This document shows, piece after piece, positions 19,801 through 26,464 of a DNA stretch of 64,000 bases. The notes under the pieces were generated by a model. It was not told the DNA's origin and did not search any database. It saw nothing but the letters and a program-made list of their open reading frames with translations. How positions within the stretch are numbered: the first letter of the stretch is position 1; each line of letters starts with the position of its first letter. Source of the stretch: the human T2T-CHM13v2.0 reference genome, Homo sapiens. Location: assembly GCF_009914755.1 (NCBI RefSeq), contig NC_060941.1. One strand, written 5' to 3'. Position numbers and translations under genes: made by a program.

Positions 19801-19815
19801 GAAATACATACATTC
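19801..19815 (+). repeat. L1 target-site duplication, 5' copy (GAAATACATACATTC)
   Basis: Identical 15-mer at 26450-26464. Confidence 0.93.
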
Positions 19816-20715
19816 GGGGAGGAGCCAAGATGGCCGAATAGGAACAGCTCCGGTCTACAGCTCCCAGCGTGACCGACGCAGAAGACCGGTGATTTCTGCA
19901 TTTCCATCTGAGGTACCGGGTTCATCTCACTAGGGAGTGCCAGACGGTGGGCGCAGGCCAGTGGGTGCGCGCACAGTGCGCGAGCCGAAGCAAGGCATTG
20001 CCTCACCTGGGAAGCGCAAGGGGTCAGGGAGTTCCCTTTCCGAGTCAAAGAAAGGGGTGACGGACGCACCTGGAAAATCGGGTCACTCCCACCCGAATAT
20101 TGCGCTTTTCAGACCGGCTTAAAAAACGGCGCACCACGAGACTATATCCCACACCTGGCTCTGAGGGTCCTACGCCCACGGAATCTCGCTGATTGCTAGC
20201 ACAGCAGTCTGTGATCAAACTGCAAGGCGGCAGCGAGGCTGGGGGAGGGGCGCCCGCCATTGCCCAGGCTTGCTTAGGTAAACAAAGCAGCCAGGAAGCT
20301 CGAACTGGGTGGAGCCCAACACAGCTCAAGGAGGCCTGCCTGCCTCTGTAGGCTCCACCTCTGGGGGCAGGGCACAGACAAACAAAAAGACAGCAGTAAC
20401 CTCTGCAGACTTAAATGTCCCTGTCTGACAGCTTTGAAGGGAGCAGTGGTTCTCCCAGCATGCAGCTGGAGATCTGAGAACCGGCAGACTGCCTCTTCAA
20501 GTGGGTCCCTGACCCCTGACCCCAGAGCAGCCTAACTGGGAGGCACCCCCCAGCAGGGGCACACTGACACCTCACACGGCAGGGTATTCCAACAGACCTG
20601 CAGCTGAGGGTCCTGTCTGTTAGAAGGAAAACTAACAAACAGAAAGGACATCCACACCAAAAACCCATCTGTACATCACCATCATCAAAGACCAAAAGTA
20701 GATAAAACCACAAAG
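19816..20715 (+). promoter_or_regulatory. L1 5'UTR with internal sense promoter and antisense promoter
   Basis: CpG-rich L1 5'UTR with YY1 site CAAGATGGCC near the start; promoter activities are established L1 biology. Confidence 0.85.
20045..20260 (-). CDS. L1 ORF0 (71 aa, intact)
   Basis: MAGAPPPASLPPCSLITDCCASNQRDSVGVGPSEPGVGYSLVVRRFLSRSEKRNIRVGVTRFSRCVRHPFL, ATG at 20260. Confidence 0.8.
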   Translation of the reverse strand: MAGAPPPASLPPCSLITDCCASNQRDSVGVGPSEPGVGYSLVVRRFLSRSEKRNIRVGVTRFSRCVRHPFL

Positions 20716-21732
20716 ATGGGGAAAAAACAGAACAGAAAAACTGGAAGCTCTAAAAATCAGAGCGCCTCTCCTCCTCCAAAGGAACGCAGCTCCTCACCAG
20801 CAACAGAACAAAGCTGGATGGAGAATGACTTTGACGAGCTGAGAGAAGAAGGCTTCAGACGATCAAATTACTCTGAGCTACGGGAGGACATTCAAACCAA
20901 AGGCAAAGAAGTTGAAAACTTTGAAAAAAATTTAGAAGAACGTATAACTAGAATAACCAATACAGAGAAGTGCTTAAAGGAGCTGATGGAGCTGAAAACC
21001 AAGGCTCGAGAACTACGTGAAGAATGCAGAAGCCTCAGGAGCCGATGCGATCAACTGGAAGAAAGGGTGTCAGCAATGGAAGACGAAATGAATGAAGTGA
21101 AGCGAGAAGGGAAGTTTAGAGAAAAAAGAATAAAAAGAAATGAGCAAAGCCTCCAAGAAATATGGGACTATGTGAAAAGACCAAATCTACGTCTGATTGG
21201 TGTACCTGAAAGTGATGGGGAGAATGGAACCAAGTTGGAAAACACTCTGCAGGATATTATCCAGGAGAACTTCCCCAATCTAGCAAGGCAGGCCAACGTT
21301 CAGATTCAGGAAATACAGAGAATGCCACAAAGATACTCCTCGAGAAGAGCAACTCCAAGACACATAATTGTCAGATTCACCAAAGTTGAAATGAAGGAAA
21401 AAATGTTAAGGGCAGCCAGAGAGAAAGGTCGGGTTACCCTCAAAGGGAAGCCCATCAGACTAACAGCGGATCTCTCGGCAGAAACCCTACAAGCCAGAAG
21501 AGAGTGGGGGCCAATATTCAACATTCTTAAAGAAAAGAATTTTCAACCCAGAATTTCATATCCAGCCAAGCTAAGCTTCATAAGTGAAGGAGAAATAAAA
21601 TACTTTTCAGACAAGCAAATGCTGAGAGATTTTGTCACCACCAGACCTGCCCTAAAAGAGCTCCTGAAGGAAGCGCTAAACATGGAAAGGAACAACCAGT
21701 ACCAGCCGCTGCAAAATCATGCCAAAATGTAA
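20716..21732 (+). CDS. L1 ORF1p RNA-binding protein (338 aa, intact)
   Basis: MGKKQNRKTG... full length; coiled coil, ARREW and YPAKLS motifs present. Confidence 0.95.
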   Translation: MGKKQNRKTGSSKNQSASPPPKERSSSPATEQSWMENDFDELREEGFRRSNYSELREDIQTKGKEVENFEKNLEERITRITNTEKCLKELMELKTKARELREECRSLRSRCDQLEERVSAMEDEMNEVKREGKFREKRIKRNEQSLQEIWDYVKRPNLRLIGVPESDGENGTKLENTLQDIIQENFPNLARQANVQIQEIQRMPQRYSSRRATPRHIIVRFTKVEMKEKMLRAAREKGRVTLKGKPIRLTADLSAETLQARREWGPIFNILKEKNFQPRISYPAKLSFISEGEIKYFSDKQMLRDFVTTRPALKELLKEALNMERNNQYQPLQNHAKM

Positions 21733-21795
21733 AGACCATCGAGACTAGGAAGAAACTGCATCAACTAACGAGCAAAATCACCAGCTAACATCATA

Positions 21796-24700: not shown

Positions 24701-25622
24701 TAGACCTAAAACCATAAAAACCCTAGAAGAAAACCTAGGCATTACCATTCAGGACATAGGCATGGGCAAGGACTTCATGTCCAAAACACCAAAAGCAATG
24801 GCAACAAAAGACAAAATTGACAAATGGGATCTAATTAAACTAAAGAGCTTCTGCACAGCAAAAGAAACTACCATCAGAGTGAACAGGCAACCTACAAAAT
24901 GGGAGAAAATTTTCGCAACCTACTCATCTGACAAAGGGCTAATATCCAGAATCTACAATGAACTCAAACAAATTTACAAGAAAAAAACAAACAACCCCAT
25001 CAAAAAGTGGGCGAAGGACATGAACAGACACTTCTCAAAAGAAGACATTTATGCAGCCAAAAAACACATGAAAAAATGCTCATCATCACTGGCCATCAGA
25101 GAAATGCAAATCAAAACCACAATGAGATACCATCTCACACCAGTTAGAATGGCAATCATTAAAAAGTCAGGAAACAACAGGTGCTGGAGAGGATGTGGAG
25201 AAATAGGAACACTTTTACATTGTTGGTGGGACTGTAAACTAGCTCAACCATTGTGGAAGTCAGTGTGGCGATTCCTCAGGGATCTAGAACTAGAAATACC
25301 ATTTGACCCAGCCATCCCATTACTGGGTATATACCCAAATGACTATAAATCATGCTGCTATAAAGACACATGCACACGTATGTTTATTGCGGCATTATTC
25401 ACAATAGCAAAGACTTGGAACCAACCCAAATGTCCAACAACGATAGACTGGAGTAAGAAAATGTGGCACATATACACCATGGAATACTATGCAGCCATAA
25501 AAAATGATGAGTTCATGTCCTTTGTAGGGACATGGATGAAATTGGAAATCATCATTCTCAGTAAACTATCGCAAGAACAAAAAACCAAACACCGCATATT
25601 CTCACTCATAGGTGGGAATTGA
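21796..25622 (+). pseudogene. L1 ORF2 (endonuclease/reverse transcriptase), disrupted
   Basis: EN motifs (IQET, GDFN, SDH) and RT FADD present. 1-bp deletion near 23627 (CAACAACCTTCATG) and TGG>TGA at 24612-24614; span is 3827 nt, one less than the 3828 of an intact 1275-aa ORF2. Confidence 0.95.
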
Positions 25623-25850
25623 ACAATGAGATCACATGGACACAGGAAGGGGAATATCACACTCTGGGGACTGTGGTGGGGTGGGGGGAGGGGGGAGGGA
25701 TAGCATTGGGAGATATACCTAATGCTAGATGACGAGTTAGTGGGTGCAGTGCACCAGCATGGCACATGTATACATATGTAACTAACCTGCACAATGTGCA
25801 CATGTACCCTAAAACTTAAAGTATAATAAAAAAAAAAAAAGAAAAAAAAA

Positions 25851-26449
25851 GAATGGTAAAAAGACCACTGGCTTTGCGCATGCGCACTTTACCTCTTCCG
25901 AACTGCAATTCTCCCATTAGTTCAGTCCATCAGCCTGCGGACTTAAGCCAGGCGTCGTGCTGACATTTAAAGATGATTCCTCTTTCGTCATAAGAAGAAA
26001 CACAGAACATCATTTGATAAACATAAAAATTAAAGAGCTCTGCTGGCAGTCCCTTTACAAGGCACTGGAGAAACCCTGGGTTGGGCATGACTGGTGCTTT
26101 TACCAACACAAGCCTAAGGGACCCCTCTGGCTGCTGGATTAGCCCTAAATGCAACCATTTGGTTTACTGGTGTAAATATGAGCTATTAGTGTCTGGTGGT
26201 GCATTAGAGTGGCCCCAACCTACTGCTTTGCCTTGTAACAAACACACAATGAAAAGAGCAGAGTTGAGTGTTGTATTTACACTGCCTGTCTAAATCTGGT
26301 TTCATAGCCCAACATCCCCCTCACCCCTTCCACAAGGATACTCATTAATGCTGCCACAACCAAGTTAGTGCCTTGTTTTCTACCTCTAAGAGTGCAAAAC
26401 GCAATAAAAAGGTGTCAGTATTTGTCCTGAAAACAAACAAACAAAAAAA
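25851..26449 (+). other. L1 3'-transduced unique sequence with second poly(A) signal and A-rich tail
   Basis: Lies between the L1 poly-A and the 3' TSD; AATAAA at 26403-26408; tail AAAACAAACAAACAAAAAAA at 26430-26449. Confidence 0.88.
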
Positions 26450-26464
26450 GAAATACATACATTC
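26450..26464 (+). repeat. L1 target-site duplication, 3' copy
   Basis: GAAATACATACATTC, identical to 19801-19815. Confidence 0.93.

What the first reader, a model, noticed from the sequence alone, without database searches (positions are those of the whole stretch)
19801..26464. Full-length L1 with a ~580-bp 3' transduction, delimited by a 15-bp TSD
Seen: GAAATACATACATTC precedes the L1 5' end (19801-19815) but does not follow the L1 poly-A (25850). It recurs exactly at 26450-26464, after non-L1 sequence (25851-26429), a second AATAAA (26403-26408) about 21 nt upstream of a second A-rich tail (26430-26449). Known: this is the signature of read-through past the weak L1 poly(A) signal and co-mobilisation of the source locus flank. 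Inference: the extra DNA comes from elsewhere in the genome and identifies the parent L1. A RepeatMasker-style annotation would treat it as native sequence.
Basis: partly seen in the sequence, partly recalled or inferred. Interest (0 to 1): 0.85.

Follow-up and report, generated by a model that had tools for sequence, protein, structure and literature searches.

The report
L1 element carrying chr8 flanking DNA
A full-length, now dead L1 retrotransposon in an intron of SMIM36 on chromosome 17 dragged along about 580 bases copied from chromosome 8 when it inserted, an ordinary and well-known by-product of L1 copying, although the chromosome 8 site no longer holds the parent element.

Summary
The exact 15-mer occurs only at 19801-19815 and 26450-26464. 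It brackets a full-length L1 (19816-25850), 579 bp of non-L1 DNA, a second AATAAA (26403-26408) and a second A-rich tail.

A search of the window's own genome finds the extra DNA at one other place, chr8:103,207,459-103,208,023, at 97% identity. Homology stops at the cleavage site 21-22 nt after AATAAA. There chr8 continues with unrelated U/GU-rich sequence and chr17 has an untemplated A-tail followed by the TSD. So chr17 is an RNA-derived copy of chr8.

This is a textbook L1 3' transduction, with one shortfall. No young L1 lies within 61.5 kb upstream or 11.5 kb downstream of the chr8 source in this genome, and there are no sibling copies. The parent was probably never fixed.

Divergence is 14 of 562 sites (2.5%). 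With a GAG 3'UTR trinucleotide and a short 900-bp 5'UTR, this indicates an L1PA2 or late L1PA3 event roughly 7-14 Myr old.

The ape empty-site test could not be run. The finding is real and ordinary, so interest is low.

The parts
19801..19815 (+). 5' copy of the 15-bp target-site duplication GAAATACATACATTC. It is preceded by ...CCCAT, so the bottom-strand nick site reads TTTC/AT, a variant of the L1 endonuclease site.
   Evidence: the consensus 5'-TTTTT/AA 'and variants' is quoted from a passage of PMC7026601
19816..20715 (+). L1 5'UTR of 900 bp, starting at the full-length 5' end (GGGGAGGAGCCAAGATGG...). This is the short form, without the 129-bp segment of older L1PA3/L1PA4.
   Evidence: In one search, all 39 scored non-self hits span 894-906 bp at 97-98% identity. 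The 129-bp loss between L1PA3 and L1PA2/L1PA1 is taken from passages of PMC5860796.
20716..21732 (+). L1 ORF1, open, 338 aa
   Evidence: Pfam Transposase_22 (4.7e-64), Tnp_22_dsRBD and Tnp_22_trimer
21796..25622 (+). L1 ORF2, broken into 613 + 327 + 286 aa pieces. The frame changes at about 23631-23637. An in-frame stop lies at 24612-24614. The element is not coding-competent.
   Evidence: frames 1, 0, 0; Pfam Exo_endo_phos on piece 1 and RVT_1 split across pieces 1 and 2
25623..25824 (+). L1 3'UTR; the trinucleotide at 25734-25736 is GAG (not ACA or ACG)
   Evidence: A passage of PMC7026601 says GAG in the 3'UTR indicates L1PA2 or older. That this is the diagnostic position is my recollection of the sequence context.
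25825..25851 (+). The L1's own AATAAA (25825-25830), which was bypassed, and the internal A-tract A13 G A9 G. This is the parent's genomic tail carried inside the read-through RNA.
25852..26429 (+). Transduced non-L1 DNA copied from chr8. AATGGTAAAAA (25852-25862) matches chr8 just before an A-run that is about 27 nt longer on chr8. The uninterrupted match is 25867-26429 = chr8:103,207,459-103,208,023.
   Evidence: 97%, E 6e-273; alignment; 14 substitutions in 562 sites and one 2-bp indel
26403..26408 (+). Poly(A) signal AATAAA actually used. It is the first canonical signal downstream of the L1's own.
   Evidence: conserved on chr8
26430..26449 (+). Terminal A-rich tail AAAACAAACAAACAAAAAAA. 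It is not templated on chr8, which continues (A)GAGACTTTCTTTTGGTGC.
26450..26464 (+). 3' copy of the 15-bp target-site duplication

Best explanation
This is one retrotransposition event, an L1 3' transduction.

Shown:
- A full-length L1 sits with 579 bp of chr8-derived sequence, a second poly(A) signal and an untemplated tail, all inside one 15-bp TSD.
- The source is chr8:103,207,4xx-103,208,024.
- chr17 is the derived copy.
- No young L1 is at the source.

Inferred:
- A full-length L1 of L1PA2 or late L1PA3 grade once sat on chr8 in + orientation, immediately upstream of what is now chr8:103,207,41x.
- Transcription from its 5'UTR promoter ran through its own weak AATAAA and its genomic A-tract. 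The transcript was cleaved and polyadenylated 21-22 nt after the next AATAAA, about 580 nt downstream.
- The L1 proteins nicked chr17 at a TTTC/AT site in an AT-rich low-complexity region inside an SMIM36 intron, antisense to the gene. They reverse-transcribed the whole chimeric RNA by target-primed reverse transcription.
- The parent allele on chr8 was a polymorphism that was lost by drift, or less likely deleted. Today's chr8 is effectively the parent's empty site.
- The event is roughly 7-14 Myr old. The copy has since lost ORF2.
For: 1. The TSD encloses the L1 plus the extra DNA, not the L1 alone. The exact 15-mer is found only at 19801-15 and 26450-64, and 0 of 100 shuffles reach 2 matches.
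2. The element is a genuine full-length L1. ORF1 is 338 aa with three L1 ORF1p Pfam domains. The ORF2 pieces carry endonuclease and RT domains.
3. The extra DNA has exactly one other genomic locus, on chr8, at 97% identity and colinear (2 candidates, 2 scored, one is self).
4. The 3' homology border is the RNA cleavage site. Both loci share AATAAA plus 21 nt. After that, chr8 has a U/GU-rich continuation and chr17 has an A-rich tail followed by the TSD.
5. The signal used is the first + strand AATAAA after the L1's own.
6. The internal junction is L1 A-tract directly joined to chr8 sequence. This is what read-through of a genomic L1 tail produces.
7. The dates agree. Transduced versus source DNA differs at 14 of 562 sites, 2.5%. 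The L1 5'UTR is 97-98% identical to its closest full-length relatives. The 3'UTR has GAG, and the 5'UTR is the short 900-bp form.
8. In the catalogue of L1 chimeras whose passages I read, the non-L1 partner is fused to the 5' end of the L1 (PMC13174262). Non-L1 sequence 3' of an intact L1 tail is instead the stated signature of 3' transduction (passages of PMC9311842, and of bioRxiv 10.1101/2021.07.12.451456).
Against: - The defining confirmatory feature is missing. No L1 lies directly upstream of the chr8 sequence.
- In 73.5 kb of chr8 there are only five old L1 fragments of 66-78% identity. The nearest + strand one is 148 bp long and 12.6 kb upstream.
- There are no sibling insertions carrying the same tag, so nothing independent shows that an L1 ever sat there.
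- The 5' homology border falls in A-rich sequence and cannot be placed to the base. That the chr8 border resembles an L1 endonuclease site is therefore only a loose fit.
- The orthologous empty site on chr17 and the orthologous chr8 locus in apes were not examined, because no such genomes are held.
Confidence: 0.85

Rival explanations
1. Two-RNA chimera made during reverse transcription or by RNA joining. ORF2p primed on the poly(A) tail of a separate, non-L1 polyadenylated RNA transcribed from chr8 and copied about 580 nt. It then switched template onto the poly(A) tail of a full-length L1 RNA and copied all 6 kb. Alternatively, the two RNAs were ligated or trans-spliced first. No parent L1 on chr8 is needed.
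For: No L1 is present at or near the chr8 source. The junction lies in A-rich sequence on both partners, which could give microhomology for a switch. Template switching, RNA ligation and trans-splicing are recognised routes to L1 chimeras (PMC13174262 passages).
Against: The order is the reverse of the catalogued chimeras. There the L1 is the 3' partner, because ORF2p starts on its own RNA, and the foreign RNA is fused to the L1's 5' end (passages only). This model needs trans-priming on a non-L1 RNA followed by complete copying of a 6-kb L1. No other retrocopy of the chr8 RNA exists in the genome, so it was not an abundant retrotransposition template. No splice donor or acceptor sits at the junction. 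An unfixed parent is the expected fate of most active L1 alleles (population-genetic reasoning, not tested here).
Confidence: 0.08
2. The parent L1 was fixed or common on chr8 and was later removed precisely, for example by recombination between its own TSD copies. The mechanism on chr17 is still a 3' transduction, but the chr8 locus is a post-deletion site and not a never-filled allele.
For: It gives the same chr17 structure. chr8 carries an unusually long A-run of about 32 A between AATGGTAAAAA and ACTGGC, which shows the site is unstable.
Against: The A-run lies downstream of the homology border, not at it, so it is not a scar of the parent. Precise removal of retroelements is rare by my recollection of the literature, which I did not check here. 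Simple loss of a polymorphic allele needs no extra event.
Confidence: 0.05
3. Two independent insertions. A 5'-truncated retrocopy of a chr8 transcript inserted first. An L1 then landed exactly at its 5' edge, and the 15-mer match is coincidental or belongs only to the first event.
For: None specific. It is considered because the two parts have separate A-tails.
Against: The L1 alone has no TSD. The 15 nt before it do not recur after its tail, even with up to 2 mismatches. The L1 would have to insert at the exact base between the retrocopy's 5' TSD and its first base, without duplicating the target.
Confidence: 0.02

Closest known systems
L1 3' transduction (read-through of the weak L1 poly(A) signal; the first descriptions by Moran 1999, Goodier 2000 and Pickeral 2000 are recalled, not read here)
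   Same: L1 with its own signal and A-tract, then unique flanking DNA, then a second AATAAA and tail, with a single TSD around everything. The length of about 580 bp lies within the 7-997 nt range reported for polymorphic events (PMC9311842 abstract). The event is interchromosomal, as most are (same paper, section 3.2.4 passage).
   Different: The progenitor L1 is not at the source locus in this genome and there are no siblings, so the tag names a place and not an element.
L1 chimeric insertions with cellular RNAs (U6/L1, Alu/L1, mRNA/L1; Law and Burns, PMC13174262)
   Same: Two unrelated sequences in the same orientation inside one TSD with one terminal poly(A) tail. Some of the catalogued mRNA chimeras also have source genes without an L1 (15 of 17, passage).
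   Different: In that catalogue the foreign RNA is at the L1's 5' end and often ends at a splice donor. Here it is 3' of a complete L1 tail, has no splice signals, and ends at a poly(A) site.
T2T-CHM13 transduction catalogue (Hoyt et al., bioRxiv 10.1101/2021.07.12.451456)
   Same: Same assembly and the same TSD-based logic (modified TSDfinder). It reports 183 highest-confidence L1 3' events plus lower-confidence bins (passages).
   Different: I could not see its Table S13. bioRxiv supplements are closed and the journal version is not held. Whether this event is listed, and in which confidence bin, is therefore unknown.

Membership tests
L1 3' transduction | A bona fide L1 with its own poly(A) signal and A-tract, followed directly by non-L1 sequence | tested here: met
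L1 3' transduction | The extra sequence ends with a second poly(A) signal and an untemplated A-tail | tested here: met
   AATAAA at 26403-08 and tail at 26430-49; chr8 has no A-tail at that point
L1 3' transduction | One TSD flanks the L1 plus the extra sequence, with none around the L1 alone | tested here: met
   2 matches only, at the outer borders; 0 of 100 shuffles reach 2
L1 3' transduction | The extra sequence maps colinearly to a unique locus elsewhere | tested here: met
   chr8:103,207,459-103,208,023, 97% identity, the only non-self hit
L1 3' transduction | The source locus has a full-length L1 directly upstream in the same orientation | tested here: not met
   no young L1 in 61.5 kb upstream or 11.5 kb downstream, only 66-78% identical scraps. 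This feature is lost whenever the parent allele was not fixed, so its absence weakens but does not exclude membership.
L1 3' transduction | The orthologous pre-insertion site in an outgroup has one TSD copy and lacks 19816-26449 | not testable with these tools
   no primate genomes are held; the genome search covers only the window's own assembly and prokaryotes
L1PA2 / late L1PA3 subfamily | 3'UTR diagnostic trinucleotide GAG (not ACA as in Ta, nor ACG as in pre-Ta) | tested here: met
   GAG at 25734-36; its meaning is taken from a PMC7026601 passage; the position context is recalled
L1PA2 / late L1PA3 subfamily | 5'UTR lacks the 129-bp ZNF93-binding segment | tested here: inconclusive
   The 5'UTR is 900 bp and its 39 closest relatives have the same length. 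The loss of the segment is described in PMC5860796. I made no direct alignment to a labelled long-form element and no RepeatMasker call.
Template-switch or RNA-recombination L1 chimera | Foreign RNA fused to the 5' side of the L1 part (L1 as first template) | tested here: not met
   The foreign part is 3' of the L1; the catalogue description comes from PMC13174262 passages

The most novel reading that the evidence does not exclude
The insertion is not a read-through product. It is a reverse-order two-RNA chimera. ORF2p primed in trans on a short polyadenylated chr8 RNA and then jumped onto the tail of a full-length L1 RNA and copied it completely. This would be a class of L1 chimera with the L1 as the 5' partner. 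Such events would be systematically mis-scored as parent-less 3' transductions.
Probability: 0.08. Interest if true: 0.45.

Novelty: already known. Interest (0 to 1): 0.18.

Why it matters
**Annotation.** About 600 bp (25851-26449) that a repeat mask leaves looking like native chr17 sequence is in fact a chr8 paralogue delivered by an L1. Anyone reading conservation, mapping short reads or interpreting variants in this SMIM36 intron should know this.

**Record of a lost element.** The chr8 tag records an active L1 allele of about 7-14 Myr ago that is no longer in the genome.

**General significance.** Little. 3' transduction has been known for about 25 years and has been catalogued genome-wide, including on this very assembly.

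Tried and rejected
- **Earlier findings.** A second call sent in the same turn failed on a missing field.
- **Papers not held.** Szak 2003, Pickeral 2000, the journal version of Hoyt 2022 and Jacobs 2014. I therefore have no published base rate for how often old transductions lack a parent, and I could not check whether this event is already listed.
- **Search syntax errors.** Searches were rejected for term syntax and resent in corrected form.
- **Source-element passages.** A term search of PMC4862182 for statements on source elements gave only one unrelated passage and two reference-list entries.
- **Rfam.** A scan of 25800-26500 at E<=1 gave 2 matches, both far below gathering score (19.6 versus 85 bits, 9.3 versus 70 bits). 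The transduced piece is not a known structured RNA.
- **Splicing model.** I rejected a distant upstream L1 spliced onto the chr8 piece. No young L1 lies within 61.5 kb upstream, and the junction has no donor or acceptor.
- **Segmental duplication.** Rejected. Homology is confined to the 579 bp and ends at an RNA cleavage site.
- **CpG decay asymmetry.** Of the six CpG transitions, chr17 carries the decayed form at 5 and chr8 at 1. I looked at this as a hint of different methylation, but the numbers are too small to mean anything.
- **L1 consensus.** I built no L1 consensus. Dating rests on pairwise identities only.
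Full report
**Observation**

The 15-mer GAAATACATACATTC occurs exactly twice in the 64-kb window, at 19801-19815 and 26450-26464. There are no further matches even with two mismatches allowed. None of 100 dinucleotide-preserving shuffles gave two matches.

The first copy abuts the 5' end of an L1 at 19816. The second abuts a 20-nt A-rich tail at 26430-26449, which begins 21-22 nt after an AATAAA at 26403-26408.

The L1's own AATAAA is at 25825-25830. Its A-tract (A13 G A9) ends at 25850 and is followed by sequence that is neither L1 nor the 15-mer.

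**The L1**

- ORF1 (20716-21732) is open and 338 aa long. It carries the three L1 ORF1p Pfam domains, with E-values from 4.7e-64 to 2.8e-31.
- ORF2 spans 21796-25622 but is split into pieces of 613, 327 and 286 aa.
  - The frame changes at about 23631-23637.
  - An in-frame stop lies at 24612-24614.
  - The endonuclease and reverse-transcriptase domains are recognisable across the pieces.
  - The copy is therefore full-length but dead.
- The 5'UTR is 900 bp. Its 39 scored non-self relatives in the genome match at 97-98% over 894-906 bp, out of 3815 first-look candidates of which 40 were scored. It is therefore the short form.
- Passages of PMC5860796 say a 129-bp segment was lost between L1PA3 and L1PA2/L1PA1.
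- The 3'UTR trinucleotide at 25734-25736 is GAG. A passage of PMC7026601 says GAG indicates L1PA2 or older. That this is the diagnostic position is my recollection of the context.
- Together these point to L1PA2 or the youngest L1PA3. I made no RepeatMasker-type assignment.

**Origin of the extra DNA**

I searched the window's own assembly with 25851-26429. This returned two candidates, both scored: the window itself and chr8:103,207,459-103,208,023 on the + strand, at 97% identity and E 6e-273.

The alignment shows uninterrupted homology from ACTGGCTTTGCGC to TTTGTCCTGA. At the 3' border chr8 continues with GAGACTTTCTTTTGGTGC, a U/GU-rich stretch of the kind found downstream of cleavage sites. 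chr17 instead has the A-rich tail and then the TSD. The chr17 tail is therefore untemplated. chr17 is a copy of a chr8 RNA that was cleaved and polyadenylated at that site.

At the 5' border, AATGGTAAAAA (chr17 25852-25862) also matches chr8. It sits just before an A-run that is about 27 nt longer on chr8. Further upstream the two loci are unrelated apart from A-richness, so the border cannot be placed to the base.

No + strand AATAAA lies between the L1's own signal and the one used.

**Age**

Over 562 aligned sites the two copies differ by 14 substitutions: 2.5%, K2P 2.54%, Poisson 95% interval 1.4-4.2%. There is also one 2-bp indel. Seven of the substitutions are at CpG sites.

A paralogue pair diverges like two species that split at the time of insertion. 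On recalled genome-wide figures, 2.5% falls between human-gorilla and human-orangutan divergence, giving roughly 7-14 Myr. This agrees with the 2-3% pairwise divergence of the L1 5'UTR from its closest relatives and with the subfamily markers.

**The parent**

It does not.

- A first BLASTN compared window 19701-26600 with 33.5 kb around the chr8 locus and found only the 579-bp match.
- A second, more permissive BLASTN (word 9, E<=1e-3) covered 73.5 kb: 61.5 kb upstream and 11.5 kb downstream. It added five fragments of 60-506 bp at 66-78% identity, which are remnants of ancient L1s.
- The nearest + strand fragment is 148 bp long and 12.6 kb upstream.
- No sibling copy of the tag exists.

So the tag identifies the source place but not a source element.

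**Interpretation**

Four of the five sequence hallmarks of a 3' transduction are met. The fifth, a parent at the source, is not.

An active L1 allele is usually a polymorphism and most polymorphisms are lost. A parent-less source is therefore the expected state for an event of this age. This is reasoning, not a result. On that reading, today's chr8 sequence is the parent's empty site.

The main rival is a two-RNA chimera, with ORF2p priming on a chr8 RNA and switching to an L1 RNA. The passages I read of the largest catalogue of L1 chimeras place the foreign RNA at the L1's 5' end, often at splice sites (PMC13174262). The present order would need trans-priming followed by complete copying of 6 kb. 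The junction has no splice signals, and the chr8 RNA left no other retrocopy.

My odds are:
- transduction from an unfixed parent: 0.85;
- chimera: 0.08;
- transduction with later precise loss of a fixed parent: 0.05;
- two independent insertions: 0.02.

**Context**

The insertion is antisense in an intron of SMIM36 (hub table). It lies in very AT-rich low-complexity DNA. A 1.7-kb AT-only tandem array ends about 120 bp upstream, and an (AT)n tract lies about 35 bp downstream. This fits the endonuclease's preference. The inferred nick site is TTTC/AT, a variant of the 5'-TTTTT/AA consensus (PMC7026601 passage).

**What could not be done**

- The T2T-CHM13 transduction catalogue of Hoyt et al. 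used the same TSD logic on this assembly (passages). I could not see its supplementary table (and bioRxiv supplements are closed), so the event may already be listed.

**Verdict**

This is a real, cleanly delimited and ordinary L1 3' transduction whose source locus is now mapped to chr8 and whose parent element is gone. It is of low general interest but is a useful annotation.

Noticed in passing
window 17960-19681: A 1.7-kb tandem array made almost only of A and T (GC 0.5-4.5% in 200-bp windows). TRF periods are 7, 17 and 24, with about 70-79% matches. It ends about 120 bp before the L1 insertion site. A shorter (AT)34 tract lies at 26498-26564, just after the 3' TSD. Long AT-only arrays are unstable and prone to forming cruciforms (recalled, not tested here). 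The L1 landed inside this AT-rich island.
   Followed up: partly
L002 1467-1500 (chr8:103,207,425-103,207,458) versus window 25863-25866: On chr8, about 32 A followed by CCCC and A8 separate AATGGTAAAAA from ACTGGC. The chr17 copy has only GACC there. Either the mononucleotide run expanded on chr8 after the event, or it collapsed during or after reverse transcription on chr17.
   Followed up: no
window 25870-25960 and L002 1501-1600: The first ~100 bp of the transduced piece is a small CpG-rich patch. It has 5 CpG per 100 bp on chr8 (o/e 0.80, against 0.00-0.40 in the four 100-bp windows covering the rest of the homologous piece from L002 1701, and 0.70 in the window immediately after the patch). 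It contains the palindrome GCGCATGCGC, which I recall as an NRF1-type site. All six CpGs are kept in the chr17 copy, whereas five CpGs further downstream have decayed on chr17. It may be a fragment of a promoter or regulatory element moved to chr17. Numbers are too small for a test, and I had no annotation of the chr8 locus.
   Followed up: partly
L002 2141-2300 (chr8, about 80 bp downstream of the source poly(A) site): A T-run followed by a sequence that looks like an Alu in reverse orientation (GAGACGGAGTCTCGCTCTGTCGCCCAGGCTGGAGTGCAGTGG-like) lies just downstream of the source segment on chr8. It is not part of the transduced RNA.
   Followed up: no
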